From: a virus | Lineage: Duplodnaviria > Caudoviricetes | Length of the DNA: 64,000 nucleotides | IMG/VR virus record: IMGVR_UViG_2706796482_000001 | Coordinates: 32,001-96,000 of that record | Strand: one strand, 5' to 3' | In this document: in pieces, positions 40,162 to 53,186 of the stretch | Position numbering within the stretch: position 1 is the first letter of the stretch | Layout of the letters: each line of letters begins with the position of its first letter | Notes under the pieces: generated by a model | The model's database searches: none | Told to the model about the DNA's origin: nothing | The model's input: the letters and a program-made list of their open reading frames with translations, nothing else | Position numbers and translations under genes: made by a program

Positions 40162-40188
40162 TTCCCGGCACCTCTAAAAAGGAGAGTA

Positions 40189-40791
40189 ATGACTGACGTA
40201 GATATTGTACTGATTGTTGACCGTTCTGGTTCCATGGCACGAATTCAGATGGAGGCAGAAGGAGCTATCAATCAGTTCCTCAAGGACCAGAAGGAAATTG
40301 AGGGAGAGGCATTCGTTACTTTCGTGCAGTTCGACAACAAGTATGAGCAGAAGTTTGAGAAGGTTAGCCTAGCTAACGCTCCTCGCGTGGAGATTGAACC
40401 ACGTGGCATGACTGCTCTGCTTGACGCAATCGGACGAACCGTAGTAGGATATGTACCACGAACTGAAAAGACAATCTACGTCATCATGACTGATGGCCTG
40501 GAGAATGCTTCTCAGGAGTGGACGAACGAGGCGGTCAAGAATCTGATTGCTGAGGAGAAGCAGCACGGAAGTGAGTTTGTGTATCTTGGTGCAAATCAGG
40601 ATGCAATCGAGGTCGGTGCCAAGATGGGAATCCCCATGGGAAGCAGCCTGACCTTTGCAGCAGACAAGAAGGGGCTTGACAACATGTCCCGCAGCATGAC
40701 AAGCTATGTAACAGCGACTCGCTCTGGACTCGCATACGAGTTCACTGATGAGGACCGCAAGAACGCTACAGGCTTGACAGACAGCGAGTGA
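40189..40791 (+). CDS. von Willebrand factor A domain protein
   Basis: DRSGSM MIDAS, TALLDAIG, TDGLEN. Confidence 0.85.
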   Translation: MTDVDIVLIVDRSGSMARIQMEAEGAINQFLKDQKEIEGEAFVTFVQFDNKYEQKFEKVSLANAPRVEIEPRGMTALLDAIGRTVVGYVPRTEKTIYVIMTDGLENASQEWTNEAVKNLIAEEKQHGSEFVYLGANQDAIEVGAKMGIPMGSSLTFAADKKGLDNMSRSMTSYVTATRSGLAYEFTDEDRKNATGLTDSE

Positions 40792-40802
40792 GCTGCTAAA
40801 GT
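40774..40802 (+). promoter_or_regulatory. Sigma70/HrdB-type promoter driving Y RNA 1 and tRNAs
   Basis: TTGACA-N17-TAAAGT with TG extension. Confidence 0.75.
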
Positions 40803-40808
40803 ATTAAA

Positions 40809-40892
40809 TGTGGGTCGAAGAGTTCAGTCGGTTATCTAATTAATGGAATCAGAAGCTCGTAAAGGGCACCCGACACTCACACCATATCCACA
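40809..40892 (+). ncRNA. Y RNA-like 1 (minimal, no tRNA domain)
   Basis: TGTGGGT-C-GAAG...ATCCACA terminal helix; GAGT/ACTC and GTCGG/CCGAC stems; TTATCT. Confidence 0.75.
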
Positions 40893-40896
40893 CTCT

Positions 40897-40967
40897 GCAT
40901 CGGTAGTTTAATGGTAGAACGTCTGACTTCCAATCAGACAGCGCGGGTTCGATTCCCGCTCGGTGCT
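40897..40967 (+). tRNA. tRNA-Gly(TCC)
   Basis: Cloverleaf; loop CTTCCAA. Confidence 0.9.
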
Positions 40968-41097
40968 CCGAAGACCTGGATTCGCCTCTGCTGACTTTTG
41001 TCAGTATGCTACCAGCGAAATGTAGTCCGGACTATGTTTCGGCCTCTGACCCGGAGGCGTTAAGCGAGTGGCAGACTCTAACTGTCAGGGTGCTCAT

Positions 41098-41169
41098 TCC
41101 CCTTTGGTGTAACCGGCAACACAACAGACTCTGAATCTGTAATTCCTAGTTCGAATCTAGGTTGGGGAG
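41098..41169 (+). tRNA. tRNA-Gln(CTG)
   Basis: Cloverleaf; loop CTCTGAA; two T-T mismatches in acceptor stem. Confidence 0.85.
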
Positions 41170-41376
41170 CTGGTCCGACTTCGTGATATCGGTGACAATA
41201 ACTGATTCGGAACGCATAATAACCATGGTAAAAGTGCGGAAAGAGGATGTAACGATAATCGGAAGCGATGGGTAAAACCTCCTCGGACCGACAATTTAAG
41301 ACCTGGCTCCAACCCATAGGGATGTGGGAACGGAGAGATTGATATGGCTGCGAAGTCCCTCCAGCGCGATATCCAT

Positions 41377-41447
41377 ATGTCCTTCGTATAATGGTAGTAC
41401 AAGAGATTCCAAACCTCTTAGCGTGGGTTCGATTCCTACAGGACATG
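41377..41447 (+). tRNA. tRNA-Trp(CCA)
   Basis: ATGTCCT/AGGACAT; loop TTCCAAA. Confidence 0.85.
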
Positions 41448-41653
41448 CTTTGACGAAGCCCGCCTTAGCAGGCATGAACGATGGTGGTCAGCATAAACCA
41501 TTTAGTAAGCCCAAGGGCAGTATCAAAAGGCAAAGGCCATGCTGAGGTCTGCTGAGTAGAGAAGTAGGGGTTAAGGTCCCAAAGAGCGTCAAAACCATTT
41601 AACAATCGCCCGGTATCGAATAGGTACCGGGCACAATCATTGCTGGAGGAAGA

Positions 41654-42085
41654 ATGGGATATTACTGTGACTGGGATGTAGACGTAAGAGGTTCTGGCCC
41701 AATCTACAATAAGCTCATGGCACAAAAGGATGAGGAGTACGTTAGCGAAAGTTACGAAATCACCCTTGGACGCTGGCTTGAATGTGAGCAGAATCTCAAG
41801 TGGTACGAAGTTGAGGAAGAGGGAAAGGCATTCTCTCGCAAGTGGCCGAACGTCATGCTCATCGTTACCTATCTTGGTGAAGATGGAGCACAGGGTCGGC
41901 ACTGGTTCCGAAATGGACACACTTATCATGTAAAGGCTCAGGTTGCATATCCAGAACCCGACTTTGACAAGGTAATGCCACTGAACATGCAGCTTGAGCT
42001 GGAAAGCATTGAAACGCGCAAGCGCGAGGTGCTTGAAAAGATGAAGGAGCTACAGGCAGAGCTTGACGAGTACCAGGAGGACTGA
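41654..42085 (+). CDS. Hypothetical protein
   Basis: GGAGG RBS; 143 aa. Confidence 0.6.
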   Translation: MGYYCDWDVDVRGSGPIYNKLMAQKDEEYVSESYEITLGRWLECEQNLKWYEVEEEGKAFSRKWPNVMLIVTYLGEDGAQGRHWFRNGHTYHVKAQVAYPEPDFDKVMPLNMQLELESIETRKREVLEKMKELQAELDEYQED

Positions 42086-42247
42086 TATCGTGGCTCTTAC
42101 AGGACGCAACGGACAATGCTGGTTTCAGAAGTGCACTCGCAAGGCAACGACGACAATCAGATATCACAACAAGTCTGTTGTTGTTTGTGATGGGCACAAG
42201 AATCTGGATGGTGTAGGCTGTCCTTCTAGCAGGCGGAGACCAAAGAG

Positions 42248-42276
42248 TTGACACTACTCAGAGGGTCTGCTAGTAT
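42248..42276 (+). promoter_or_regulatory. Sigma70-type promoter
   Basis: TTGACA-N17-TAGTAT. Confidence 0.7.
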
Positions 42277-42304
42277 TAAGTACAACGGCAGGGAAACCTG
42301 CTAT

Positions 42305-42376
42305 CAGGCACGGGGAAGATGGTAATCCGTTGGCTTTGGAAGCCTAAGACACTCGGTTCGATTCCGAGGTGCCTGA
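42305..42376 (+). tRNA. tRNA-Pro(TGG) copy 1
   Basis: CAGGCAC/GTGCCTG; loop TTTGGAA. Confidence 0.85.
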
Positions 42377-42380
42377 CTTC

Positions 42381-42455
42381 CGGGATATAGCTCAGTTTGG
42401 TCAGAGCGCTGCATTTGGGATGCAGAAGTCGCTGGTTCGAATCCAGTTATCCCGA
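42381..42455 (+). tRNA. tRNA-Pro(TGG) copy 2
   Basis: Canonical cloverleaf; loop TTTGGGA. Confidence 0.9.
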
Positions 42456-42457
42456 CT

Positions 42458-42535
42458 AGCCCCATAGGATAATGACTAATCCGCCTGTACGTGGAGTACA
42501 GGTAATACCGGTTAAATTCCGGACTAGGGGCTCCA
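42458..42535 (+). tRNA. Atypical tRNA-like RNA (TGG in loop)
   Basis: D arm GGAT/ATCC, extended anticodon stem, T loop TTAAATT, ends in CCA. Confidence 0.55.
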
Positions 42536-42538
42536 AAC

Positions 42539-42693
42539 TTTTGGGTCGATTGAGACACGGTTATCTTACACAATGGATACTAGGTTCGATTCCTAGGGGT
42601 GCCGTAAAAAGCGCTCTGTAAAGTCATCTCAGATGTGTGTGGTAGGATGACATAAGGTACTACACTCTCTCCGTTCTCGCCACTTACCTAAAG
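42539..42693 (+). ncRNA. Y RNA-like 2 (T arm + closed acceptor stem + altered D region)
   Basis: TTTGGGT-C-GATTG...ACCTAAA; GAGA/TCTC and ACGG/CCGT stems; TTATCT; CTAGG-TTCGATT-CCTAG. Confidence 0.7.
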
Positions 42694-42701
42694 GATTTAT
42701 C

Positions 42702-43223
42702 ATGACGGTACTTCTACGAACAATTCACGGAAGCCATCTATATGGCCTTGCGCACGCCGGTTCGGATAAAGATATCTACGAAGTAGTATCTACCAAAAGA
42801 ACTAAGAGAAAGCGCAACATTAAGCAAACCATTGTAAATGGAGTTGACAAGACTACAGTAGACCTGTCAACATTCATGCACATGGTTGATGAATGTGTAC
42901 CTCAAGCACTTGAAGCGCTATGGACGCCGGTACCAGATGTGGATGAAATCCACCAGTTCCGGACACAGTATAGAGTGAATCGCGCCAAGATGAAGGATGT
43001 ATATATTCGAACCGCTCTGAACTTCGCCAAGAATGATGATGTAAAGCGTAAGCGACATGCACTTCGCTTGCTGCTGAATCTAGGCGCAGCTTTGGAATAC
43101 GGTAAATTCAATCCCCGCCTCTCAACCATGGATAAGTTTATCATTAACTCCACTATGGGAGAGACGGGAGCTTACGAAGATGTCTTTGTTGGCATCATCG
43201 ATGAAGTTCAAAAGTGGGTCTGA
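42702..43223 (+). CDS. Predicted nucleotidyltransferase (Pol-beta superfamily)
   Basis: GSHLYGLAHAGSDKD (GS...DxD) motif. Confidence 0.8.
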   Translation: MTVLLRTIHGSHLYGLAHAGSDKDIYEVVSTKRTKRKRNIKQTIVNGVDKTTVDLSTFMHMVDECVPQALEALWTPVPDVDEIHQFRTQYRVNRAKMKDVYIRTALNFAKNDDVKRKRHALRLLLNLGAALEYGKFNPRLSTMDKFIINSTMGETGAYEDVFVGIIDEVQKWV

Positions 43224-43236
43224 TGGCTCACGCCAA

Positions 43237-43313
43237 TGGGGCGTATACCCTCACTCTGATAAAGTGTAGAAAGGTTAATCGGTTACATGTGGGTTCAATT
43301 CCCACCGTCCCAA
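43237..43313 (+). ncRNA. D-arm-less tRNA-like RNA with GAT loop
   Basis: TGGGGCG/CGTCCCA; CACT-CTGATAA-AGTG; GTGGG-TTCAATT-CCCAC. Confidence 0.55.
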
Positions 43314-43323
43314 CTGGCTCTCA

Positions 43324-45162
43324 TTGGAGAGCAATCCTAGAAACCCTAAAACAATGGTAGATTTCGACAAGAGACATTCTAAAGAACTTGTGAAACGCCC
43401 TGACGCAGACCTGGTTGATACCAGGTCTTTTCGGTCTTCCGGTCAGGGTGTATTTTCGCATGTCCGGAAGGGTGTCAAAATAACGAGTAAAGCCATTCTG
43501 GATTGGGTCTACCTGAATGACTACAAGGAAGAGATTGCCAAGGCTAAGAATGAGGGCAATCTAGAAAAGGCCCGGAAGTTGAAGATTGAGCAGGAGAAGC
43601 GTAGTGAGCCGAGACGTAAGAGATTCTACTCTGTGCTCGCTGTGCTGATTGCACTAACGGGATGGGCCTACGTTACATGGGCCATTATTCCAATCGCTGT
43701 AGTAGGTGTTACCCTCCTTGTAGCCATGTGGTTCGTAGGTAGCGGCTTCAAGCCTAGCCAGTTCAATTTCAAGAATGGCGATGGGGAAGACGACCCCATG
43801 GAACCTTTTCCAATTGCTGACGCTCGAACCAGAGACGAGGCGATGGAGTGTTTGAGGAGAGCACTTCTTGCTGAGGGAATCACTCCAAGAGTAATCTTGG
43901 AACCAACTCGTTACAACTGGGGATGGGAAATCCCGGTAGTATTGAGAAAAGGTACTCCTGATGATGTAATGTCTAAGGCTAAGAAGATGGAGACTCTTCT
44001 CAGACTACCGGCCGATGGTATGCTAGTCGCAGCAACAAGGTTCCGTGCCGAAGTTGTTATCAGACTTATGCAGACTGACCCATTTGCCGACATGACAATG
44101 GAGCCTAGAGCAGAACCTCTTTCTCGTTCAATCAAGAAGAAGTACAAGATTGCACAGAGGATGGATGGCTCTCCGCTTGAAATCAGCTTGCTGAGAAACC
44201 ACGCAGTTGTTATTGCTGCTCCTGGTGGTGGTAAGTCAATGTTCATGCGTAAGCTTGCAGACATCACCACTAGCTGTAGAGACTGTGTAACCTGGGACAT
44301 TGACCCTGGCGGTAATGGACTCGAAGTCTTCGGAAGGGCCATCGCAAGACGTGGTAGGACCGAAGAGGAAATTGAAGAAATGCTAACGGAGGCTCTGGAG
44401 TACACGAAGATTCGTGCAAAGAAGCTGACGAAGCTAGGAATGGGTGACAATTGGCAGCCAACCAAGGACCATCCTGCCCTTATCATCTTCATTGATGAGT
44501 TCATTCAGCTCAACAAAAAGTGCAAGGATTTGGCAATCCAGATTATTCGCAATGGGCGTAAGTCTGCTATTACTGTCGTACTCGCTGCACAGCAGGCAAC
44601 GAAGGACACTCTTGGTGCCGCCATTGCAGATGCAGTGTCTATTAAGGTAATGTTTGCTTCTCGTCACGCTGACGTACCTCTCGTGTTTGGAGAGGGCATG
44701 TTGTCACAGGGCTGGAGACCTGATAAGCTACATCCAGCATCAGGTGAGGATGTGGAAGACGCTGGTAAGTGCTACATTTTGGGCGGTGGCTCAAGAGAGC
44801 CTTACCTGTACAAGGTCTTCCCAATCGAGCCAGATGAGGCAATTGAGATGGGTGACGAGCGTGAAGCAGAGGGTATGCCCGAGCTTGACACAGACACCTA
44901 CCTAGATGTTACAGTTACAGACACGACGGACAAGAGACTGCTTGAGGATGTACTAGACGTGTTTGAGAACTTTGACGAGAATGACTGGCTCCCTGCCAGC
45001 ATCTTGGTCAAGGAACTCAAGGGCTACGGCCACACCTTGACAGCTCGTCAGTTGCATGAGACTCTAGGAGATACCGGCCGAGAGAGCCGTATTTGGGAAG
45101 GGTCCAAGTACAAGGTGGCTGGTTACTTCCGAAAGAACATCGAGAAGCAATTGGAGAAATGA
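43324..45162 (+). CDS. FtsK/SpoIIIE (TraB-like) DNA translocase
   Basis: Two N-terminal TM segments; AAPGGGKS, IDP, FIDE, GRK, AAQ; C-terminal wHTH-like region. Confidence 0.8.
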   Translation: MESNPRNPKTMVDFDKRHSKELVKRPDADLVDTRSFRSSGQGVFSHVRKGVKITSKAILDWVYLNDYKEEIAKAKNEGNLEKARKLKIEQEKRSEPRRKRFYSVLAVLIALTGWAYVTWAIIPIAVVGVTLLVAMWFVGSGFKPSQFNFKNGDGEDDPMEPFPIADARTRDEAMECLRRALLAEGITPRVILEPTRYNWGWEIPVVLRKGTPDDVMSKAKKMETLLRLPADGMLVAATRFRAEVVIRLMQTDPFADMTMEPRAEPLSRSIKKKYKIAQRMDGSPLEISLLRNHAVVIAAPGGGKSMFMRKLADITTSCRDCVTWDIDPGGNGLEVFGRAIARRGRTEEEIEEMLTEALEYTKIRAKKLTKLGMGDNWQPTKDHPALIIFIDEFIQLNKKCKDLAIQIIRNGRKSAITVVLAAQQATKDTLGAAIADAVSIKVMFASRHADVPLVFGEGMLSQGWRPDKLHPASGEDVEDAGKCYILGGGSREPYLYKVFPIEPDEAIEMGDEREAEGMPELDTDTYLDVTVTDTTDKRLLEDVLDVFENFDENDWLPASILVKELKGYGHTLTARQLHETLGDTGRESRIWEGSKYKVAGYFRKNIEKQLEK

Positions 45163-45386
45163 TGGAAGCCGTACTCGTCGGCCCCGTCATCCTATGGGTT
45201 CTGATTTCACTATACCTTGTCAAGAAGAAGGGTAAGCAGTGGCCGGAACTAATGTGGGGTATTGTCGGAGGTCTCATCCTTGCTACCATCTTTACCGGTC
45301 TTCCTAAGACCGTGTATAACATGGCTGATACAGGATGGAACGGAGTAGTCAGCGTAGCGCAGAGCATCACCAACTCTCAGGGTTGA
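45159..45386 (+). CDS. Small membrane protein
   Basis: Two hydrophobic segments; overlaps translocase stop (ATGA). Confidence 0.6.
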   Translation: MMEAVLVGPVILWVLISLYLVKKKGKQWPELMWGIVGGLILATIFTGLPKTVYNMADTGWNGVVSVAQSITNSQG

Positions 45387-45411
45387 CAGGTGCTCTGCCT
45401 CGCTGTAATAT
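45383..45411 (+). promoter_or_regulatory. Sigma70-type promoter
   Basis: TTGACA-N17-TAATAT. Confidence 0.7.
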
Positions 45412-45443
45412 AGACTTAAACCTAGTCCTTCCGGGCTAGATGA

Positions 45444-45517
45444 GCGCCAGTAGCATAACGGTTCAATGCAGTAGGCTTATATCCTACCGAGAGAAGGTTC
45501 AATTCCTTCCTGGCGTA
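45444..45517 (+). tRNA. tRNA-Ile(TAT)
   Basis: GCGCCAG/CTGGCGT; GTAGG-CTTATAT-CCTAC. Confidence 0.8.
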
Positions 45518-45519
45518 CT

Positions 45520-45664
45520 TGTGGGTCGAAGATAATTGTTTATCTTCAAATCAGCTTGTTGGGGGTTCGAATCCTCCCTGGGGACTTCATTGTCCTCGGT
45601 AGCTCAATGGCAGAGCGGCTGACATTGCCCAAATGGGCTAGACGATTGTCACACCATATCCACA
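45520..45664 (+). ncRNA. yrlA: Y RNA-like 3, YrlA type (complete circularly permuted tRNA domain)
   Basis: TGTGGGT-C-GAAG...ATCCACA; order T arm, closed acceptor stem, D arm; TCAGC/GCTGA. Confidence 0.9.
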
Positions 45665-45691
45665 TTACATAACTACTACTTAAGGACAGTA

Positions 45692-45859
45692 ATGGCTGCG
45701 CTATCGCACGCGATTGGTACGAAGGTAAAGGTTACAAACGGTAGCTACAGGAACAAGACTGGTGTTGTTCAGGTCAAGGATGGTCACATGGTGGTCGTCA
45801 TGGACAAGGACAATTCAGTTCTGTATGGAGCTAGCGATTCCATGGTTGAGAAGGTGTAA
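45692..45859 (+). CDS. Small KOW/SH3-like protein
   Basis: IGTKVKVTNGSYRNKTGVV; AAGGA RBS. Confidence 0.5.
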   Translation: MAALSHAIGTKVKVTNGSYRNKTGVVQVKDGHMVVVMDKDNSVLYGASDSMVEKV

Positions 45860-46027
45860 ATGGCTTACTTTGAAGGCCAGAAGATTTGGGTCAATGGAGA
45901 GCCTGGCATTTATGTCAAGGATTCTGACAACCCAACCTTGGCAAAGGTAGAAGTTCCAGAGGGTTCTGGAAACGTAATGCTTTGTGTAAAGAAGCAAATC
46001 AACGTTCGGTCTGACTGAGCGTTTTTT

Positions 46028-46113
46028 GGAAGGTAAGCGATTGGTTTAGCGGGTGTCTTGGAAAGGCACTAAGGGTGTTACAGCCCGGCAGGGTTCAATT
46101 CCCTGGCCTTCCG
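46028..46113 (+). tRNA. tRNA-Ser(GGA)
   Basis: Long variable arm; loop TTGGAAA. Confidence 0.8.
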
Positions 46114-46126
46114 CAGGAGGTGCAAT

Positions 46127-46345
46127 ATGATAATCTGTGGAGACACAGTTGAAGTAAAGCACGACCGTCCGAATATTGAATCTGCCTATTACGGAAAGCG
46201 TGGCAGAATTCACAAGCGGACTCGTATTCTCGGAAAGCTCGGTGCTGGGGATTACGAAATTATGTTCTTCGATAGAGAACTCAATCATCCTATCATGGGT
46301 GTGATGGGTGGCTTTAACGAAGATGACCTGGAAGTCATTCGCTGA
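46127..46345 (+). CDS. Hypothetical protein
   Basis: AGGAGGT RBS. Confidence 0.55.
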   Translation: MIICGDTVEVKHDRPNIESAYYGKRGRIHKRTRILGKLGAGDYEIMFFDRELNHPIMGVMGGFNEDDLEVIR

Positions 46346-46354
46346 CTTCCCCAT

Positions 46355-46440
46355 GGAGGCACGCATTGGAGTGCTTATCGGTCTTGAAAACCGTGATGAC
46401 GTAGTGATATGTCGTGGGGGTTCGACTCCCTCTGTCTCCG
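46355..46440 (+). tRNA. tRNA-Ser(TGA)
   Basis: Long variable arm; loop CTTGAAA. Confidence 0.8.
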
Positions 46441-46488
46441 CCCTAAACCCGGTACTAATTGTGCCGGGCCTTATTTATAGGAGGAAGT

Positions 46489-46671
46489 ATGGCTAATGAG
46501 CCTACTGGTAACAACAAAAAAGAATGGGTGAAGTACATTGAAGAAAACCGAATCCCATTCTGGTGCTCTGTCTGTTCAACTGAGAATCCTCGTAAGTGTC
46601 AATGCTGGTCTGACATTCAGCGATGGGAGCAGGTTGAGCTATGGCAGGGTGAAGAGAGGCGCAAGAAGTGA
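46489..46671 (+). CDS. Small Cys-rich protein
   Basis: AGGAGG RBS, ATG 46489. Confidence 0.5.
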   Translation: MANEPTGNNKKEWVKYIEENRIPFWCSVCSTENPRKCQCWSDIQRWEQVELWQGEERRKK

Positions 46672-47060
46672 GTGCCGTACTTCTTGGAGTATTGCTCCAC
46701 TTCATTGGTGATTACATCATCCAGACAGACTGGATGGCACAGCTAAAGACAAAGCGATGGGCTCCAGCAATTGTCCACGGTGTCACATACGGTGTCCCGT
46801 TTGTCTTCGCTACGATGTCACCGATAGCCCTGGCTGTCATCATTGTCACTCACATTGTCATCGACCATTACCGCCTTGCTCGACATCTAGTATGGGCAAA
46901 GAATCAGCTTGCTCCAAAGAGCTGGCGATATTCTTGGAGCGAAGGTCATCTGACAGGATATCGAAATGACGGTCCTGTCTGGCTCAACACTTGGCTGATG
47001 ATTATCGCAGATAACACATTGCATATCATCATCAACACTCTAGCCATCCTCTACCTATGA
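46668..47060 (+). CDS. DUF3307-like membrane protein
   Basis: HFIGDYIIQ...H..ID...DNTLH. Confidence 0.75.
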   Translation: MSAVLLGVLLHFIGDYIIQTDWMAQLKTKRWAPAIVHGVTYGVPFVFATMSPIALAVIIVTHIVIDHYRLARHLVWAKNQLAPKSWRYSWSEGHLTGYRNDGPVWLNTWLMIIADNTLHIIINTLAILYL

Positions 47061-47079
47061 GGGTGGCTTTTTGTGTTTT
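47042..47079 (+). terminator. Intrinsic terminator
   Basis: AGCCATCCTC/GAGGGTGGCT followed by T tract. Confidence 0.65.
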
Positions 47080-47097
47080 CAATGATAAAATGGATGC

Positions 47098-49050
47098 ATG
47101 GCTAATTCAACACCCTTGCTAGGAGCAGGAAATGTAACCACAGCAAGCAATGCAAATGCGACATCCATAACCGTCAACAAGCCAGCCAATCTGGCAGACG
47201 GTCATTACATGTTTGCAGCTATTCTTCAAAGAAATGCGGCCGGTACGTGGACTGTTCCTTCCGGCTGGATAGAAGTTGGCGTAACTCAGCAAGATTACGT
47301 TGACTGCAAGGTGTATTACAAGGCAGTGCCATCGGCAGCAGCAGAGACAGCGACAAGCTATACCTGGACAACCAACAAGACGGCTGAGAGAATTGTAGCA
47401 ATCGTATGGCTCCAGACTAGCGTGAACGCTTCTCCAATTGATGCTCTGGGCTCTGGAACGGCTACAGCACCCAATCGTACTACCATGAACTTCGCATCCG
47501 TGACAGCAGTAAGTTCTCATGCCACCCTGATGACTATTGGATATAGCACTATTGCTGGTGGCTCTACTGCACCGGTCGGTTCTACTCCAACTGGAATGAC
47601 GGAAATCGCTAATGTCAATATTGCTAATGCTACTCCAAATGCATTGAATCTCAAGGTAAGCTATCAGGTTCTTAATGTAGCTGGAGCCACTGGAACAAGG
47701 GCGACTAACTATTCACCGGCCGCTTCTGGTTCTGGCGGATTCACATTCACTATAAATCCTGACGGAGACCCACCACCAACTGTCATCGCATTGAGACAAG
47801 GACTTGGTGACAGGGACAAAGTACGTGTCCTCAGCAGGACAAGCTTTGCGACATCTGTCCGCTTGGCTGTCTCATTGTCCAGTGACATGTCCTCACCTGT
47901 GTATTCATCCTCAGTGACACCGGACAGCGATGGGTACTCTAAACTAACTGTCACTGGTTTGTCCCAGGACACGAAGTATTACTTTGCGCTGGAAGTCAAT
48001 GGTGTCCTCGACATGTCACTGACAGGACAGACAAGGACATTCCCTGTGACAGGCTCTTTCAGCTTCCTTGCTGCGTCATGCTCTTACACTGCATCAAATC
48101 ATGCAGTCTTTGATGCTATGCGCACACGAGTCGGCCCAGATGGATTGCCTGCAAGATTCTTCGCTCATCTGGGAGACGTTCATTATGAACACGCTAGCTA
48201 CCAGCCTCAGCCAATAGCTCCAAATGACCCAGCAGAGCACCGTACAAATTACGAGAATGGATTGATGACTGCTCGCCAGTCTGCTCTTTGGCGCAATATT
48301 CCTGTGAGCCATACGTACTCAGACAATGACTTCTGCGGAAGCAACTCTGATAGCACGTATGCTGCTCGTCCAGCTATCATTGCTGTAAGACATCAAATCA
48401 TGATTGACCCGCCTCTTCCTGACTCTCAGGGAAATGGTCTTTGGAGAAGTTGGGTAGTTGGCCGAGTTCGTTTTATACAAACGGACAGCCGTACCTACAT
48501 GAGCGCAAAGGGGGCTACAGACAACAGCTCTAAGACTATGCTGGGAGCGGAACAGAAGGCATGGCTCAAGAGTCAGCTTCTGCAACCAGAACTTCTCAAG
48601 GTATGGCTACATGACCAAGCATGGGGAGGAATAGCAACAAATCCCGGTAATAATGATACTTGGCAAGCATTCAATACTGAGAGAGTAGAGATAGGAAACT
48701 TCATCTCTACTAACAAAGTCAAGGTAGTTTATGTTCATGGCGATAGCCATCGTCTTTCTGCTGATGACGGAATTCTTAACACAAGGGGAGGATTCCCAAC
48801 AATCTCTTGTGCTCCTATGGACCAATCTTCTCAGGGAGGAGATTCATCAGGAGAAGCAAATTCAGCAGGAGTCTATCCAGCTTATGGAGTTACACAACCA
48901 GGTAATTACTACGGATGGTTTGATGTCAATGACGATGGGTATCAGCTCTCTTTGATATTCAAGGGGTACGATTCAGAAGGAACGCAGAGAGTAACCATGA
49001 CAGTTACTGTCAGTCCTGAGAAGGCAACTGGATGGGGATATCCTCTCTAA
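47098..49050 (+). CDS. PhoD-like/purple acid phosphatase with N-terminal beta-rich domain
   Basis: ASC, HLGDVHY, TDSRTY, MLGAEQKAWL, GDSH. Confidence 0.8.
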   Translation: MANSTPLLGAGNVTTASNANATSITVNKPANLADGHYMFAAILQRNAAGTWTVPSGWIEVGVTQQDYVDCKVYYKAVPSAAAETATSYTWTTNKTAERIVAIVWLQTSVNASPIDALGSGTATAPNRTTMNFASVTAVSSHATLMTIGYSTIAGGSTAPVGSTPTGMTEIANVNIANATPNALNLKVSYQVLNVAGATGTRATNYSPAASGSGGFTFTINPDGDPPPTVIALRQGLGDRDKVRVLSRTSFATSVRLAVSLSSDMSSPVYSSSVTPDSDGYSKLTVTGLSQDTKYYFALEVNGVLDMSLTGQTRTFPVTGSFSFLAASCSYTASNHAVFDAMRTRVGPDGLPARFFAHLGDVHYEHASYQPQPIAPNDPAEHRTNYENGLMTARQSALWRNIPVSHTYSDNDFCGSNSDSTYAARPAIIAVRHQIMIDPPLPDSQGNGLWRSWVVGRVRFIQTDSRTYMSAKGATDNSSKTMLGAEQKAWLKSQLLQPELLKVWLHDQAWGGIATNPGNNDTWQAFNTERVEIGNFISTNKVKVVYVHGDSHRLSADDGILNTRGGFPTISCAPMDQSSQGGDSSGEANSAGVYPAYGVTQPGNYYGWFDVNDDGYQLSLIFKGYDSEGTQRVTMTVTVSPEKATGWGYPL

Positions 49051-49152
49051 GTTGACAGCTCTCCTTGGAGCTGCTACGGTAGTATTACACTTGAGAAAAT
49101 AAAGAAAAAGCTAGTTAGATACTAGCTAGAATCTAGTTAGAATATAGGGAAT

Positions 49153-49407
49153 ATGAGACTCTTTGAACTTCATAGAGACATAGATTCGTCTGGTGTCTCT
49201 GGAACAGGAGTGGTTGCTCAGGGTGTAGAGTTTGACAATGGGCAGTGTGCCATGGCATGGTTGTCCGAGTGGCAGTCAGTTGCCATTTATCCTGACATTA
49301 CCGTCCTTGAAGCGATTCATGGACACAACGGCAACACTCGTGTAGTATGGCTTGAGGATGACGAAGATTATTGGGCTGGCTATCAGTCAGCGCCGGTAGG
49401 CAGTTGA
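49153..49407 (+). CDS. Conserved phage hypothetical protein
   Basis: R..D.SGVSGTGVVAQGVEF...HGHNG. Confidence 0.65.
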   Translation: MRLFELHRDIDSSGVSGTGVVAQGVEFDNGQCAMAWLSEWQSVAIYPDITVLEAIHGHNGNTRVVWLEDDEDYWAGYQSAPVGS

Positions 49408-49432
49408 CAGGGTTTGTCCTTGATGCTAGTGT
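49404..49432 (+). promoter_or_regulatory. Sigma70-type promoter
   Basis: TTGACA-N17-TAGTGT. Confidence 0.65.
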
Positions 49433-49510
49433 AGAACGTAGAGCAGGTCGGCAAGCAGGTAAGTGAGGAATACAGGAGCTTGAGCCACAACCCCTCCACC
49501 TAGCTCTCTT

Positions 49511-49586
49511 GCGTCTGTAGTATAGTCTGGTCTAATGCACCTGATTGTCAATCAGGAAATCGCGGGTTCAAATCCCGTCAGGCGCG
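49511..49586 (+). tRNA. tRNA-Asp(GTC) copy 1
   Basis: Cloverleaf; loop TTGTCAA. Confidence 0.9.
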
Positions 49587-49891
49587 CATGAAATCGAGAT
49601 GGAAGTATTCTGCAAAGTACAAATCACCAAATGGTTGCAAGGCTTCTATCACCAGCTCAGTAAGGGCTGACAGCTTTGATGAAGCCTATGAAGAAGTATG
49701 CAATCAATTGAGGCATCAGAGCTTTGAACTTATTGGCATGACTATTGAGAAGGAATAGATGGCTATTCGATTCTGTCCATCATGTATGCAAAATGTCGTT
49801 ACCATCGTACAGAAGCCAAACTGTAAGCACTGTGATACAGTTACTAAGCCGGTAGATGAGAAGCTTCCTCTACCAGACGAAGGCGAAGTAA

Positions 49892-50116
49892 ATGACCTTA
49901 TTGGTAAGCGACGAAAGCGAGATAAAAATGCCTAGATACGAAATCAAGGGAACTATTCCCTTCGGAGATGAAACCGAAGTGGTTGATGACGTATTTGAAG
50001 CAAGAAATCAGCTTGAAGCAAATCGGAAGTTCAATGCACGTGTGCAGGAGATTTCCAGGCAGACTGGTCGCAAGACGACTGGTAAGCCAAACGTAACAAT
50101 CACCCTCATGAAGTAG
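49892..50116 (+). CDS. Hypothetical protein
   Basis: ORF; start uncertain. Confidence 0.45.
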   Translation: MTLLVSDESEIKMPRYEIKGTIPFGDETEVVDDVFEARNQLEANRKFNARVQEISRQTGRKTTGKPNVTITLMK

Positions 50117-50124
50117 GGTGTTAT

Positions 50125-50195
50125 CCCGGCGTGGTGTAATGGTAACATACTGCGTTGTCAGCGCAATGTCGAGGGTTCGATTCCCTTCGTCGGGA
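50125..50195 (+). tRNA. tRNA-Asp(GTC) copy 2
   Basis: CCCGGCG/CGTCGGG; loop TTGTCAG. Confidence 0.8.
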
Positions 50196-50198
50196 CTT

Positions 50199-50309
50199 TG
50201 TGGGTCGAAAGAGTAAGTCGGTTATCTTCCTTTGAATAAGAAACAGATAGGTTCGAATCCTATGTAGCCCAAGGCACGGGCGACTCCGACTCTCACCAAT
50301 ATATCCACA
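50199..50309 (+). ncRNA. Y RNA-like 4 (T arm only)
   Basis: TGTGGGT-C-GAAAG...ATCCACA; GTCGG/CCGAC; TTATCT; ATAGG-TTCGAAT-CCTAT. Confidence 0.8.
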
Positions 50310-50313
50310 TGTT

Positions 50314-50643
50314 ATGAATACACAAGAGAGAATCGAAAAGCTAAAAGAACTGTGGAACGATGGCTGGTATCTAGAAGATGCCATTGGAGAAATCGGTGAC
50401 CATCTTACAGAAGATGAGTTCAAGCCAAAGTTCATTGACACCATCGAAGAAGATGAGTCTCGATGGATGATGCATACTCTGGATATTGCTGAGATTGACG
50501 AAGGTGTATACGTTGGTGTACGCTGGGAACGAGGCAAGACAGAGATGCAAGAGAACATCTTTGATGATAAGAACGTCTACCTTCTTGAAAAGGTTGAGAA
50601 GGTGGTCACAACTGTCGATTGGAATGACGTAAAGAAGCTATGA
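50314..50643 (+). CDS. Hypothetical acidic protein
   Basis: 109-aa ORF. Confidence 0.55.
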   Translation: MNTQERIEKLKELWNDGWYLEDAIGEIGDHLTEDEFKPKFIDTIEEDESRWMMHTLDIAEIDEGVYVGVRWERGKTEMQENIFDDKNVYLLEKVEKVVTTVDWNDVKKL

Positions 50644-51062
50644 AAAATTGGCTCGGACATGAAATCGAAGTTGGCGCAGTCGTATTCCGTGGCGGAAAGC
50701 AGGGCACATCGTCCTCTTTCCGCGTCGGTGTTGTAGACGCCATTGACGTAGAAAAGCAGACTGCTCGTGTAGAGTGGCACTGGGTTCCAAGCAATCGTCC
50801 TGTATGGGACAAGGATAAGTACCAGTATTGGCACATGGATGACAATCGCTACTACGTTTCTGGCCCTTCTAAAGCCAGCACTCAGAGAACTCGCTACTCC
50901 ATCAACGACCTTGCGAGGCTTGATGACGGTATGCTAGAGTACCTACAGAAGCGATACCAGCTTATCGAAGCTGCTATCCACTACAAGATTCGTGAAGAAG
51001 ATTTTGCTCAGTTCGAGCATGACTTTGAAATGGGACTAGTTCCCGAAATTCCTATGCCTTAA
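50640..51062 (+). CDS. Hypothetical protein
   Basis: 140-aa coupled ORF. Confidence 0.55.
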   Translation: MKNWLGHEIEVGAVVFRGGKQGTSSSFRVGVVDAIDVEKQTARVEWHWVPSNRPVWDKDKYQYWHMDDNRYYVSGPSKASTQRTRYSINDLARLDDGMLEYLQKRYQLIEAAIHYKIREEDFAQFEHDFEMGLVPEIPMP

Positions 51063-51081
51063 GAAAGGGCCGGTAACAAAA

Positions 51082-52731
51082 ATGTCTAACGCACTTAACA
51101 ACGCAGCTAAGGGTCTCAACAAGACTCCTCAGACTGTCAAGGCCAAGAGTGGTCAGGTCAAGAACAACGCTGGTGGATTCGTCTTCCAGGTTTCTGACCA
51201 GGCTCGCCTTGAGCGATTCCTGATTCTCGGTGTAGATGGCGGTACGTATTACGTCAAGGAGACCGACCACGCACGTAGTAACGTGCAGTTCCTCAACGAC
51301 ATGATTGAGCGAGACGAAGCCTCTGTACTGAACACCATTGTGGACGTGTCCGTCAATGGTCGTGCATACAAGCAGTCTCCAGTCCTGTTCGCGCTAGCCT
51401 CTGTCATTGTCCACGGACGTGACAAGCAGTCCGTCAAGGCTGTCTTCAATCGTGTTGTTCGTACAGGCACGCACCTCTATGAGGTCGTGAACTACCTGAA
51501 CACCATGGGTGGATGGGGTCGTGCAAAGCGCGAAATCGTTGCTGGATGGTTCGACAAGGATGCTGATAAGCTGGCTTACCAGATGGTCAAGTACCGTTCT
51601 CGTAAGTTTGGCGACCAGACCTGGACCATGCGTGACGTAATGCGTAAGGCTCACCCACGAGATGTTAACACGTCTGCGGCTGACTTTGCTCTCGGCAAGG
51701 AGCACGACGCTATTGATGACCTTCGGGTTATTGAGGGCTTCAAGCTCATGCAGAAGGCTCAGTCTGTCGAGGATGTTCACAGCGTTCTCCGTGAGTATGA
51801 GATGCTTTCATGGGAGACAATCCCAACTCAGTTCCTCAAGGACGTGAGTGTATGGAAGCGCATCTTCGCCAATGGTCAGCTTCGTGGTCAGGCTCTTGTC
51901 CGAAACATCACTCGTCTCGCACGAATTGGTGCTTTCCAGGACATGCGCTTCGCTGCCGCGTATGCAGGACAGCTTACGAACCAGGAAATGATTGTACAGA
52001 CTCGTCTGCACCCAATCAACTTCCTGAACGCATCTGTCGTGTACAACGACGGTCAGATGAAGCGAGTCAATGACCGCTGGGGCTTTGAATCAGAGCAGCG
52101 AGTCAAGGATTGGACAACCGAAAGTGTCATTGTTGACGCTCTCAATGAGGGCTTCCACAAGGCATTCAAGGCTGTCGAGCCTGCTGGCAAGCGTACGATG
52201 CTGGCTCTGGACGTATCAGGTTCTATGAGTGCAAAGGCTAACGGTCTCGACCTTAGCTGTGCTCAGGTTTCTGCTGCAATGTCTATGGCCATCGCTCGTA
52301 CCGAGCCTGCTCACATCATCCGAGGATTCACGTCTTCTGGTGGTGGCTACAGCTACAGGAGCAGCGGTCTGACTGACCTCGGTATCAGCGCTCGTACTGA
52401 CCTTGCTACGGCAATGCGCAGTGTGCAGCGTCACAACTGGGGTGGCACAGATTGTTCACTCCCAATGCGTTGGGCTCTTGAGAACAGGGTAGAAGTTGAC
52501 ACCTTTGTGGTTATCACTGATAACGACACATGGGCTGGCGACATTCACCCATTCCAGGCGCTCAAGGAGTACCGTAAGAAGACTGGAATTCCAGCTCGTC
52601 TGGCAGTTCTGGGAGTTCAGGCAACTGAATTCACCATTGCTGACCCAAGCGATGCGGGAATGATGGACTTCGTTGGATTTGACAGCAATGCGCCTCGTGC
52701 GCTGGCTGACTTCTCCGCTGGTCGCATCTGA
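51082..52731 (+). CDS. rsr: Ro60/Rsr RNA-binding protein (TROVE + vWA)
   Basis: QVKNNAGGFVF, RLERFLILGVDGGTYY, GWGRA, KYRSR, HP, LALDVSGSM, GGTDCSLPM, TDNDTW, GFDS. Confidence 0.95.
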   Translation: MSNALNNAAKGLNKTPQTVKAKSGQVKNNAGGFVFQVSDQARLERFLILGVDGGTYYVKETDHARSNVQFLNDMIERDEASVLNTIVDVSVNGRAYKQSPVLFALASVIVHGRDKQSVKAVFNRVVRTGTHLYEVVNYLNTMGGWGRAKREIVAGWFDKDADKLAYQMVKYRSRKFGDQTWTMRDVMRKAHPRDVNTSAADFALGKEHDAIDDLRVIEGFKLMQKAQSVEDVHSVLREYEMLSWETIPTQFLKDVSVWKRIFANGQLRGQALVRNITRLARIGAFQDMRFAAAYAGQLTNQEMIVQTRLHPINFLNASVVYNDGQMKRVNDRWGFESEQRVKDWTTESVIVDALNEGFHKAFKAVEPAGKRTMLALDVSGSMSAKANGLDLSCAQVSAAMSMAIARTEPAHIIRGFTSSGGGYSYRSSGLTDLGISARTDLATAMRSVQRHNWGGTDCSLPMRWALENRVEVDTFVVITDNDTWAGDIHPFQALKEYRKKTGIPARLAVLGVQATEFTIADPSDAGMMDFVGFDSNAPRALADFSAGRI

Positions 52732-52733
52732 CA

Positions 52734-52760
52734 AAAGCCCCTCTTCGGAGGGGCTTTGTT
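52734..52760 (+). terminator. Intrinsic terminator
   Basis: AAAGCCCCTC-TTCG-GAGGGGCTTT-GTT. Confidence 0.75.
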
Positions 52761-52765
52761 GGCTC

Positions 52766-52794
52766 TTGACACATGCTTTCAGATGCTGTAGCTT
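52766..52794 (+). promoter_or_regulatory. Sigma70-type promoter (possibly leaderless mRNA, ATG at 52801)
   Basis: TTGACA-N17-TAGCTT. Confidence 0.6.
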
Positions 52795-52979
52795 AGACAC
52801 ATGAAGCAAGACGAGCCTGGCGTTTCAATTCTCAGCATATTGAGAATGCTTAGGCGCTCTAAGAAAGTTCGGCCGGTAGTGGAGATGTCCACCTGTGGCC
52901 ATTGCAAGACACAGTACGATATCCATAAGGGACACATGTGTTCCTACATCAAAGACCTATTCGCAAAAATGGAGAAGTC

Positions 52980-53186
52980 ATGAGCTACAAGGCAGAGACC
53001 TTTACTCGCACTGGCAATGGCAAGATGGCTGACAACATCAAGGCCCTTGCGAAGCAGTGTGGCCTCACGATTAACAGTTTCAGTGCAAATGGTTGGGTCC
53101 TCAAGACCATTACCATTACAGTGTATGGTCACCAGGATGACATTGTTCGTTTTGAGACTCAGCTTCCGAGCGGAGTGCAGTCTTGA
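52980..53186 (+). CDS. Hypothetical protein
   Basis: GGAG RBS, ATG 52980. Confidence 0.5.
   Translation: MSYKAETFTRTGNGKMADNIKALAKQCGLTINSFSANGWVLKTITITVYGHQDDIVRFETQLPSGVQS

What the first reader, a model, noticed from the sequence alone, without database searches (positions are those of the whole stretch)
40809..52731. Phage Ro60 with a family of four dispersed Y RNAs carrying graded tRNA-mimic modules
Seen: a full Ro60 (TROVE+vWA) gene at 51082-52731. Four non-coding elements (40809-40892, 42539-42693, 45520-45664, 50199-50309) share one scaffold: 5' TGTGGGT-C-GAA(A)G (TTTGGGT-C-GATTG in #2) pairs with 3' ATCCACA (ACCTAAA) next to an unpaired C, followed by a second, sequence-variable but paired stem and then TTATCT. 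Their interiors differ: complete permuted tRNA (#3), T arm + closed acceptor stem + altered D region (#2), T arm only (#4), none (#1). Three start 3-4 nt after a tRNA 3' end; #1 starts at a promoter and abuts a tRNA 5' end. Established: Ro60/Rsr binds a bulged helix (GNCGAAN0-1G in bacteria), YrlA mimics tRNA, and Y RNA tethers Rsr to effectors such as PNPase; Ro/YrlA pairs are known in some phages. Inference: one Ro protein with four interchangeable RNA adaptors released by tRNA processing, possibly decoys for anticodon nucleases or guides for RNA decay/repair in infection. The multiplicity and modular series is the novel part.
Basis: partly seen in the sequence, partly recalled or inferred. 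Interest (0 to 1): 0.95.

Follow-up and report, generated by a model that had tools for sequence, protein, structure and literature searches.

The report
Four Y RNAs beside phage Ro60
A 133-kb Streptomyces phage encodes a Ro60 protein and four unannotated small RNAs with the Ro-binding scaffold of bacterial Y RNAs, scattered among its tRNA genes; this adds new members to a known phage and bacterial RNA-protein system rather than a new kind of system.

Summary
The window comes from a cluster-BE Streptomyces phage (Samistivirus; 96.6% identical to phage Targaryen). ORF 51082-52731 is a full-length Ro60 (TROVE + Ro60-vWA; E 3e-97 to D. radiodurans Rsr).

Exactly four elements in the 133.5-kb genome share one scaffold, all on the Ro60 strand and all in unannotated gaps of the tRNA array. 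The scaffold is a terminal 7-bp stem, GNCGAAN0-1G, a second stem, then GGUUAUC.

A covariance model built only from minimal elements of relatives finds three of the four. A second-round model finds all four and nothing else. Both stems covary strongly (15 of 16 pairs in distant loci).

The same model hits next to Ro60, always on its strand, in mycobacteriophage, Gordonia phage, 17 of 25 searched IMG/VR Ro60 loci, and 7 of 7 bacterial Ro60 loci. These are therefore Y RNAs by the published criteria.

- #3 is a YrlA-type tRNA mimic.
- #2 is a YrlA derivative with a probable pseudoknot and a variant motif.
- #4 has a T arm.
- #1 is minimal and starts at a conserved promoter.

Several Y RNAs per genome, tRNA mimicry, co-transcription with tRNAs and phage Ro60/Y RNA pairs are all published. 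Relatives carry 3-6 copies. This is a solid new member of a known kind, of moderate interest. Ro60 binding itself is untested.

The parts
51082..52731 (+). Ro60 (TROVE + vWA) gene, 549 aa
   Evidence: Pfam TROVE 9.4e-32 and vWA_Ro60 6.4e-59. Full-length match to D. radiodurans Rsr 2nvo (3e-97) and X. laevis Ro60 1yvp (3.4e-75). Annotated 'Ro-like RNA binding protein' in relatives.
40809..40892 (+). Y RNA #1: minimal form (Ro-binding scaffold plus a small GCUC/GGGC hairpin)
   Evidence: R1 75 bits, E 2.9e-17; R2 66.5 bits. Orthologues in all 11 Boydwoodruffvirinae loci, with compensatory changes in both stems and in the hairpin. Motif GUCGAAG.
40774..40802 (+). Sigma-70-type promoter (TTGACA-N17-TAAAGT, with TG) that would start transcription at the first base of Y RNA #1
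   Evidence: The -35 hexamer is invariant and the -10 hexamer differs at one position (TA[A/G/T]AGT) across four genera (alignment A6).
40897..40969 (+). tRNA-Gly(UCC), 4 nt downstream of #1; RNase P cleavage of its leader would define the 3' end of #1 (inferred)
42248..42276 (+). Promoter-like site ahead of the unit tRNA-Pro, tRNA-Pro, tRNA-like RNA, Y RNA #2
   Evidence: TTGACA-N17-TAGTAT, 10 of 12 matches.
42457..42535 (+). Unannotated tRNA-like RNA ending ...GGGGCU-CCA, immediately before #2
   Evidence: Cloverleaf-like minimum-free-energy fold, z -4.6. Missed by ARAGORN and by Rfam.
42540..42692 (+). Y RNA #2: scaffold with variant motif GUCGAUUG, T arm, closed acceptor-like stem, and stem GUCAUC/GAUGAC with a probable pseudoknot replacing the D arm
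   Evidence: R2 33.5 bits, E 4e-6, full model; this copy was not in the training set. Missed by R1. Orthologues in Samistivirus and Karimacvirus: 92.7% of cells paired, with one compensatory pair in each of stem 2, the T arm, the GUCAUC stem and the pseudoknot stem.
42702..43223 (+). RlaP-like nucleotidyltransferase gene whose ribosome-binding site overlaps the 3' end of #2
   Evidence: Pfam RlaP 6.9e-5, 23.1 bits against a cut-off of 23. PHROG 388 nucleotidyltransferase 1.3e-21. In Tomas and Coruscant the gene is present without #2.
45383..45411 (+). Promoter-like site ahead of the unit tRNA-Ile(UAU), Y RNA #3
   Evidence: TTGACA-N17-TAATAT.
45520..45664 (+). Y RNA #3: YrlA-type, with a complete permuted tRNA-like domain (T arm, 8-bp loop-closed acceptor stem, D arm) at 45533-45651
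   Evidence: Rfam YrlA RF02553 39.8 bits, E 4.7e-6 in 10.6 kb, full model but below the gathering score of 69. R1 39.4 bits, E 1.2e-7. R2 58 bits. Found at 80% coverage or more in 35 phage records.
50199..50309 (+). Y RNA #4: scaffold plus T arm plus a small hairpin (like M. smegmatis YrlB, which also has a T arm)
   Evidence: R1 44.4 bits, E 5.4e-9. R2 65.4 bits. Stem 1 changes in a compensatory way between phages: UGU/ACA, UGC/GCA, UGA/UCA. 4 of 5 T-arm pairs show double changes.
45444..45518 (+). tRNA-Ile(UAU), directly upstream of #3
50125..50196 (+). tRNA-Asp(GUC), directly upstream of #4

Best explanation
The phage encodes one Ro60 protein and four paralogous Y RNAs. All four share a Ro60-binding module:
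- a terminal 7-bp stem made of the 5' and 3' ends;
- an internal loop carrying GNCGAAN0-1G;
- a second, 8-10 bp stem;
- a conserved GGUUAUC at the start of the apical region.

The apical 'effector' module differs between them:
- #3: a full YrlA-type tRNA mimic;
- #2: T arm, closed acceptor-like stem and a probable pseudoknot;
- #4: T arm and a hairpin;
- #1: a hairpin only.

The genes sit inside tRNA transcription units. #1 starts at the +1 of a conserved promoter and lies just before tRNA-Gly. #2, #3 and #4 follow a tRNA or tRNA-like RNA by 2-4 nt. Host tRNA-processing enzymes (RNase P and 3' trailer nucleases) would therefore release them, and the base-paired ends plus bound Ro60 would stabilise them.

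By analogy with D. radiodurans, S. Typhimurium and Thermus phage phiLo, each RNP would gate the Ro60 ring and tether it to a partner. Candidates are host PNPase or, for the tRNA-like modules, tRNA-binding enzymes. The role during infection would be decay or quality control of structured RNA, plausibly of the phage's own very large tRNA/tmRNA output.

Shown here: the RNA family, its structure, its conservation and its association with Ro60. Inferred: Ro60 binding, the processing route, the partners and the role in infection.
For: 1. Ro60 is genuine and full length.

2. There are exactly four scaffold copies in the genome, all on the Ro60 strand and all in intergenic gaps.

3. Model R1 was built only from class-#1 elements and from the tandem '#5' elements of relatives. 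It still finds #3 and #4 with the full model.

4. Covariation is strong:
- A1: 94% of cells paired, 9 of 16 pairs with double changes, 0 of 500 shuffles as high.
- A5, 34 distinct sequences from other viral contigs: 91% paired, 15 of 16 pairs with double changes; paired cells fall to 34-47% when partners are slid.

5. Association with Ro60. Every R1 hit lies on the Ro60 strand: 38 of 38, 11 of 11, 39 of 39 in 25 searched IMG/VR Ro60 loci, 17 of which had a hit, and 10 of 10 in 7 bacterial Ro60 loci, all within about 600 nt upstream of Ro60.

6. #1, #3 and #4 carry the published GNCGAAN0-1G motif, and GGUUAUC fits the conserved YUAY of YrlA (PMC4201824).

7. #3 matches Rfam YrlA at E 4.7e-6. 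The YrlA-like hit upstream of Ro60 in mycobacteriophage Spud scores the same range, 36 bits.

8. The promoter in front of #1 is conserved across genera.

9. Precedents: a phage Ro60 binds two phage Y-like RNAs and forms a complex with PNPase (PMC12135203), and Yrn2-tRNAAsp-Yrn1 is a polycistron in D. radiodurans (PMC4201824).
Against: - No expression, processing or Ro60-binding data exist for these RNAs.
- #2 has GUCGAUUG instead of GNCGAAN0-1G in this lineage, and R1 misses it.
- #1, #2 and #3 lie 5.4-10.2 kb from Ro60, outside the 4-kb rule used by Chen et al. 2014.
- #3 is below Rfam's gathering score (39.8 against 69).
- No close relative lacking Ro60 was found, so dependence on Ro60 could not be tested by loss.
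- The phage has no RtcB, RNA ligase or class-II CCA enzyme, so a self-contained repair pathway is not encoded.
- The partner and the biological role are analogy only.
Confidence: 0.8

Rival explanations
1. The elements are Ro60-independent structured spacers of tRNA operons. They would act as processing or stability signals, or as transcription punctuation, and only happen to co-occur with Ro60 in this phage family.
For: Three of the four directly follow a tRNA-type RNA and one directly precedes a tRNA. #1, #2 and #3 are 5-10 kb from Ro60. No binding data exist.
Against: - The same scaffold lies immediately upstream of Ro60, without tRNAs, in mycobacteriophage Spud and in 7 of 7 bacterial Ro60 loci.
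- The conserved loop motif is the published Ro-contact motif.
- Most of the 30+ tRNA junctions in the window have no such element.
- In Samisti12 a small ORF separates #4 from its tRNA.
Confidence: 0.07
2. Y RNA #2 is mainly a cis-acting leader of the RlaP-like nucleotidyltransferase mRNA. It would control translation by sequestering the ribosome-binding site in its terminal stem, rather than act as a free Ro60 ligand. This need not exclude Ro60 binding.
For: The 3' strand of stem 1 (ACCUAAA) runs into AAAGGA and the ATG at 42702. The Ro motif is altered to GUCGAUUG. The adjacency is conserved in Samistivirus and Karimacvirus.
Against: - Tomas and Coruscant keep the nucleotidyltransferase gene without #2.
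- In Francob an annotated nucleotidyl transferase lies several kb away from the Y-like elements.
- Daubenski, Riptide and Karimacvirus orthologues of #2 keep the canonical CGAAAG or CGAAUG.
- The full Y scaffold and T arm are conserved, which a simple leader would not need.
Confidence: 0.1
3. The tRNA-like elements (#2, #3, #4) are decoys that soak up host tRNA-targeting defence nucleases, independently of Ro60.
For: They have T arms and acceptor-like stems. Authors have suggested that the large tRNA sets of these phages counter tRNA-degrading defences (PMC5764925).
Against: - None has an anticodon stem-loop, so anticodon nucleases have no target.
- #1 and the tandem '#5' elements of relatives have no tRNA-like part, yet they are the best conserved.
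- Every copy retains the Ro-binding scaffold.
Confidence: 0.03

Closest known systems
Bacterial and phage YrlA/YrlB Y RNAs with Rsr/Ro60 (Chen et al. 2014, PMC4201824; Rfam RF02553)
   Same: - GNCGAAN0-1G near the 5' end.
- A terminal stem made of both ends.
- A conserved YUAY (here UUAUC).
- A YrlA tRNA-like domain with T arm, closed acceptor stem and D arm (#3).
- A second Y RNA with only a T arm (M. smegmatis YrlB; compare #4).
- Two or more Y RNAs per genome, on the Ro60 strand.
- Co-transcription with tRNA (Yrn2-tRNAAsp-Yrn1).
- YrlAs reported in 22 phages.
   Different: - Four paralogues (3-6 in relatives) spread over 10 kb of a tRNA array, not clustered within 4 kb of Ro60.
- An extra helix (stem 2) lies between the motif and the apical module.
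- #2 has a variant motif and a probable pseudoknot in place of the D arm.
- #3 scores below Rfam's gathering threshold.
- Not annotated in any of the fetched phage records, and not found in the searchable literature for Streptomyces phages.
Thermus phage phiLo Ro60 with Yrl1/Yrl2 (PMC12135203)
   Same: A phage-encoded Ro60 with more than one phage-encoded Y-like RNA carrying CGAA in a stem-bulge-stem. Binding and a ternary complex with host PNPase were shown there.
   Different: phiLo has two RNAs, both directly upstream of Ro60, and no tRNA-like modules are described. Here nothing has been tested biochemically.
Cluster C mycobacteriophage (Bxz1/Spud) Ro locus
   Same: R1 finds two minimal scaffold elements flanking an Rfam YrlA-like hit (36 bits), all on the Ro60 strand. 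The Ro60 proteins are about 41% identical.
   Different: There all three sit in a block of about 400 nt just upstream of Ro60, away from tRNA genes.
Animal Y RNAs and nematode sbRNAs
   Same: Several paralogues per genome (four in humans). The Ro60-binding lower stem is made of both RNA ends. A UUAUC motif lies in the loop next to the upper stem (PMC4726728).
   Different: Different Ro motif (GGUCCGA with a bulged C), pol III transcripts, no tRNA-like domain. The UUAUC similarity may be convergent and was not tested.

Membership tests
Ro60 / Rsr (TROVE) protein | TROVE (HEAT-repeat ring) domain followed by a Ro60-type vWA domain, full length | tested here: met
   Pfam TROVE 9.4e-32 and vWA_Ro60 6.4e-59. 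Residues 8-548 align to Rsr 2nvo, 3e-97.
Ro60 / Rsr (TROVE) protein | Binds Y RNA and misfolded RNA | not testable with these tools
   Needs EMSA or pull-down.
Bacterial Y RNA (criteria of Chen et al. 2014) | GNCGAAN0-1G motif near the 5' end | tested here: met
   #1 GUCGAAG, #3 GUCGAAG, #4 GUCGAAAG. Not met by #2 in this lineage (GUCGAUUG), although its orthologues in Daubenski, Riptide and Karimacvirus have GUCGAAAG or GUCGAAUG.
Bacterial Y RNA (criteria of Chen et al. 2014) | 5' and 3' ends pair to form the terminal stem, supported by covariation | tested here: met
   Helix 1 is 94-97% paired; 4 of 7 pairs (A1) and 7 of 7 pairs (A5) show compensatory changes.
Bacterial Y RNA (criteria of Chen et al. 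2014) | Encoded on the Ro60 strand within 4 kb of Ro60 | tested here: inconclusive
   All four are on the Ro60 strand. #4 is 0.8 kb upstream. #3, #2 and #1 are 5.4, 8.4 and 10.2 kb upstream. In other genomes the same model hits within 0.6-3 kb of Ro60.
Bacterial Y RNA (criteria of Chen et al. 2014) | Bound by Ro60 and dependent on it for accumulation | not testable with these tools
   Experimental.
YrlA (Rfam RF02553) | tRNA-like domain: T arm, loop-closed acceptor stem, D arm in permuted order | tested here: met
   #3 aligns to model positions 1-114 with all three arms.
YrlA (Rfam RF02553) | Score at or above Rfam's gathering threshold (69 bits) | tested here: not met
   39.8 bits, E 4.7e-6. 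The YrlA-like hits in Spud (36.1 bits) and BlueNGold (52.1 bits) are also below threshold, so the threshold is too strict for actinophage members. #1, #2 and #4 give no YrlA hit.
YrlB-like / minimal Y RNA | Ro-binding module with no complete tRNA-like domain (hairpin or T arm only) | tested here: met
   #1 has a hairpin only. #4 has a T arm and a hairpin.

The most novel reading that the evidence does not exclude
The 3-6 Y RNA paralogues of Stanwilliamsviridae phages are a set of interchangeable adaptors. Each would aim the single phage Ro60 at a different host machine: PNPase for the minimal forms, and tRNA-processing or tRNA-modifying enzymes, or the adjacent RlaP-like nucleotidyltransferase, for the tRNA-like forms. 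Together they would form a phage-run surveillance or repair system for its own roughly 45 tRNAs. #2 would double as a translational leader that couples nucleotidyltransferase synthesis to Ro60 occupancy.
Probability: 0.2. Interest if true: 0.75.

Novelty: new member of a known kind. Interest (0 to 1): 0.5.

Why it matters
More than 100 sequenced Streptomyces phages (clusters BE and BK, family Stanwilliamsviridae) carry an annotated Ro60 gene but no annotated partner RNA. This work places 3-6 Y RNA genes in each phage examined, with a usable covariance model.

The natural series of apical modules, from none through a T arm and a partial mimic to a full tRNA mimic, all sit on one constant Ro-binding scaffold. 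This series is a ready-made dissection of what the tRNA-like domain of YrlA is for, which remains open, and it occurs in a culturable phage-host pair.

The same model also shows that GNCGAAG-stem-UUAUC is a pan-bacterial Ro-binding module: it recovers Ro60-adjacent RNAs in Poribacteria and Armatimonadota.

The work also corrects annotation. At least one YrlA is called a tRNA in a deposited genome.

Tried and rejected
- Rfam at gathering thresholds found only tRNAs. A YrlA hit to #3 appears only in E-value mode.
- Minimum-free-energy folds of single sequences are not significant for #1, #2 and #4 (z -0.6 to -1.4). The #3 fold prefers a competing GAAGAUAA/UUAUCUUC hairpin. The comparative data, not thermodynamics, carry the structure.
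- cmsearch with filters off lost the long elements (#3 whole, #4 partly), because the long insertions are not scored in that mode. I used default filters.
- R1 misses #2 of the window; a second-round model was needed.
- RtcB, RNA ligase and class-II CCA-adding enzyme were sought in the genome as signs of an RNA-repair operon like rsr-yrlBA-rtcBA. None was found.
- The genome-contig scan with the phage Ro60 did not return M. smegmatis or Streptomyces loci. The model therefore could not be tested on the experimentally validated M. smegmatis YrlA/YrlB.
- Supplementary tables of Chen et al. 2014 (phage list, copies per phage) are not held. Two reviews (PMC10870794, PMC6047535) are not held.
- I did not find a close relative lacking Ro60, so the test 'present without Ro?' could not be run.
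- The anticodon-nuclease decoy idea was rejected because no element has an anticodon loop.

Full report
**Source.** The window is part of a 133,531-bp virus record with direct terminal repeats. Region 40000-53000 is 96.6% identical to Streptomyces phage Targaryen and about 85% identical to Samisti12 and other cluster-BE phages. 107 Streptomyces phage records match. These phages are known for 43-48 tRNAs and a tmRNA (PMC5764925). ARAGORN finds 32 tRNAs in the window, all on the + strand.

**The protein.** ORF 51082-52731 (549 aa) hits Pfam TROVE (9.4e-32) and vWA_Ro60 (6.4e-59). It aligns end to end with D. radiodurans Rsr (PDB 2nvo, 3e-97) and X. laevis Ro60. Relatives annotate it as 'Ro-like RNA binding protein'. 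tblastn finds homologues in 351 phage records: 211 Mycobacterium, 112 Streptomyces, 11 Gordonia, 10 Microbacterium and a few others.

**The four elements.**
- #1, 40809-40892: UGUGGGU-CGAAG, stem, GGUUAUCU ... AUCCACA.
- #2, 42540-42692: UUUGGGU-CGAUUG, stem, GGUUAUCU ... ACCUAAA.
- #3, 45520-45664: UGUGGGU-CGAAG, stem, GUUUAUCU ... AUCCACA.
- #4, 50199-50309: UGUGGGU-CGAAAG, stem, GGUUAUCU ... AUCCACA.

A regex for the 5' half matches 4 times on the + strand and never on the - strand. Shuffled windows give a mean of 0.007 matches. None of the four is annotated in Targaryen, Samisti12, NootNoot, Daubenski, Riptide, IchabodCrane, Wofford, Tomas, JimJam or Coruscant. All lie in gaps between annotated genes.

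**Comparative test.** I aligned class-#1 orthologues from four genera together with a short tandem element that relatives carry after #4, which I call '#5' (alignment A1). The alignment shows invariant GGG, CGAA, GGUUAUC and CCGA blocks.
- The named structure (7-bp stem 1, then 4 + 5 bp of stem 2) is 94% paired.
- 9 of 16 pairs change on both sides, and no shuffle out of 500 reaches the observed covariation.
- Paired cells fall to 26-47% when partners are slid by 1-3 columns.

Model R1, built from A1, contains no #2, #3 or #4 sequence. It still finds #4 (44.4 bits, E 5e-9) and #3 (39.4 bits, E 1e-7) in the window with the full model, and nothing else in 64 kb or in the whole genome. A second-round model, R2, finds exactly four hits in the window at E<=5. 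R2 also finds exactly these four in the whole genome.

**Association with Ro60.** Every R1 hit in every Ro60 locus I could fetch lies on the Ro60 strand.
- 38 of 38 hits in the window and 11 annotated phage loci.
- 11 of 11 hits in Francob, Emma1919, mycobacteriophage Spud and Gordonia phage BlueNGold.
- 39 of 39 hits in 25 searched IMG/VR Ro60 loci, 17 of which had a hit, most within 3 kb upstream of Ro60.
- 10 of 10 hits in 7 of 7 bacterial MAG loci (Poribacteria, Chthonomonas, Fimbriimonadia and one labelled cyanobacterium), all within about 600 nt upstream of Ro60.

On the 34 distinct IMG/VR sequences, 15 of 16 pairs show compensatory changes. In Spud, two R1 hits flank an Rfam YrlA-like hit just upstream of Ro60. 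Chen et al. 2014 reported mycobacteriophage YrlAs. The scaffold is therefore the general Ro-binding module of bacterial and phage Y RNAs.

The motif in #1, #3 and #4 is exactly the published GNCGAAN0-1G. GGUUAUC corresponds to the conserved YUAY of YrlA (PMC4201824). A UUAUC loop motif is also described in nematode sbRNAs and vertebrate Y RNAs (PMC4726728). I did not test whether that similarity reflects homology.

**Apical modules.**
- #3 aligns to Rfam YrlA over the T arm (GGGGGUUCGAAUCCUCCC), an 8-bp loop-closed acceptor stem and the D arm (GUAGCUCAAUGGCAGAGC). It scores 39.8 bits, E 4.7e-6, below the gathering score of 69. The Spud (36 bits) and BlueNGold (52 bits) YrlA-like hits are also below it.
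- #2 has CAAUGGAUA, a T arm, a closed 6-7 bp stem, and then stem GUCAUC/GAUGAC. The loop of that stem (GUGUGGUA) can pair with a downstream UACUACAC. Each of these helices has one compensatory pair among six distinct orthologues, so the pseudoknot is plausible but thinly supported.
- #4 has a T arm in which 4 of 5 pairs change on both sides, followed by a small covarying hairpin.
- #1 has only a small hairpin, which covaries (GCUC/GGGC, GCUCC/GGGGC, GCCA/UGGC, CGGGC/GCCCG).

**Transcription context.** A TTGACA-N17-TAAAGT promoter with a TG extension ends 6 nt before #1. Its -35 hexamer is invariant and its -10 hexamer differs at one position across Samistivirus, Karimacvirus, Tomasvirus and Coruscantvirus. 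#1 ends 4 nt before tRNA-Gly. Similar promoter-like sites precede tRNA-Pro (42248-42276) and tRNA-Ile (45383-45411), so #2 and #3 are the last RNAs of short tRNA units. #3 and #4 begin 2-4 nt after the discriminator base of tRNA-Ile and tRNA-Asp. #2 begins about 4 nt after an unannotated tRNA-like RNA. Adjacency is not absolute: in Samisti12 an annotated small ORF separates tRNA-Asp from #4. Release by tRNA-processing enzymes is an inference, with the D. radiodurans Yrn2-tRNAAsp-Yrn1 precursor as precedent (PMC4201824).

**Copy number in relatives**.
- Samistivirus close to the window: four (#1-#4).
- Daubenski and Riptide: three (no #3).
- Karimacvirus: four (#1, #2, #4, #5).
- Tomas and Coruscant: three (#1, #4, #5).
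- The Loccivirinae phages Francob and Emma1919: five or six, mostly in tandem.
- One IMG/VR contig has four in tandem just upstream of Ro60, and another has six hits.

Four copies and dispersal are thus one state of a variable family trait.

**What is known.** Chen et al. 2014 reported 355 putative YrlAs in 254 bacteria and 22 phages. They also reported at least two Y RNAs in each species studied, a YrlB with a T arm in M. smegmatis, and RNase P cleavage and CCA addition of YrlA. A 2025 paper showed that Thermus phage phiLo Ro60 binds two phage Y-like RNAs and joins host PNPase (PMC12135203). I found no paper describing Y RNAs of Streptomyces phages, though the library is incomplete.

**Function.** The phage lacks RtcB, RNA ligase and a class-II CCA enzyme. 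The only nearby RNA-repair-type gene is an RlaP-like nucleotidyltransferase, whose ribosome-binding site overlaps the 3' end of #2. That gene occurs without #2 in Tomas and Coruscant. The most likely role is that of Ro60-Y RNA RNPs elsewhere: Y RNA gates the Ro60 ring and tethers it to an exoribonuclease or another partner. The variable apical modules would choose the partner. This is analogy, not evidence. The anticodon-nuclease decoy idea does not fit, because no element has an anticodon loop.

**Verdict.** The identification as Y RNAs is well supported by comparative criteria and untested biochemically. The system is a new, richly populated member of a known kind.

Noticed in passing
window 42457-42535: Unannotated tRNA-like RNA between the second tRNA-Pro and Y RNA #2. 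It has a 6-bp acceptor stem, a D arm, an 8-bp 'anticodon' stem with only a 5-nt loop, a 4-bp T arm and an encoded ...GGGGCU-CCA end (fold z -4.6). ARAGORN and Rfam miss it. It is absent in Daubenski and Riptide, where #2 follows tRNA-Pro directly.
   Followed up: partly
L006:10505-10576, L007:11293-11364, L008:12238-12308, L011:22948-23025: Karimacvirus, Tomas and Coruscant carry a fifth, minimal Y RNA (motif GGGCCGAAnG, 67-78 nt) in tandem right after #4. It is missing in the window's lineage.
   Followed up: yes
L010:7651-9191 and L012:3728-5130: The Loccivirinae phages Francob and Emma1919 have five or six Y-like elements (R2 E<=1e-3), several head to tail, between tRNA-Trp/Ile and the Ro60 gene. 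One of them is a YrlA-like hit (Rfam 31 bits).
   Followed up: partly
L014:7730-7829 (Gordonia phage BlueNGold): An Rfam YrlA hit (52 bits) overlaps a feature deposited as tRNA-Leu(gag), which itself overlaps tRNA-Gln. This is probably a Y RNA misannotated as a tRNA. Four further scaffold hits lie upstream of Ro60, after the tmRNA and between tRNAs.
   Followed up: partly
window 43237-43313, 55949-56074, 63284-63355, 63456-63526: Rfam tRNA hits just above threshold that ARAGORN does not report. One spans 126 nt. They may be unusual or interrupted tRNAs.
   Followed up: no
window 40189-40791: A 200-aa protein with a sub-threshold vWA match (Pfam E 3.9e-4; annotated as a VWA-domain protein in Coruscant) is conserved immediately upstream of the Y RNA #1 promoter in all BE-type relatives fetched. 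Ro60 has a vWA domain of its own.
   Followed up: no
window 50314-51062: Two small genes of unknown function (PHROG 13073 and 2596) lie between Y RNA #4 and Ro60. The first is syntenic in all fetched Boydwoodruffvirinae loci. The second is present in Samistivirus and Coruscant but absent in Karimacvirus and Tomas. They are possible partners of the RNP.
   Followed up: no
L057-L063 (bacterial MAG loci): The phage-derived model finds one to three Y-like RNAs within 600 nt upstream of Ro60 in Poribacteria, Chthonomonas and Fimbriimonadia MAGs. I do not know of described Y RNAs in these phyla.
   Followed up: partly
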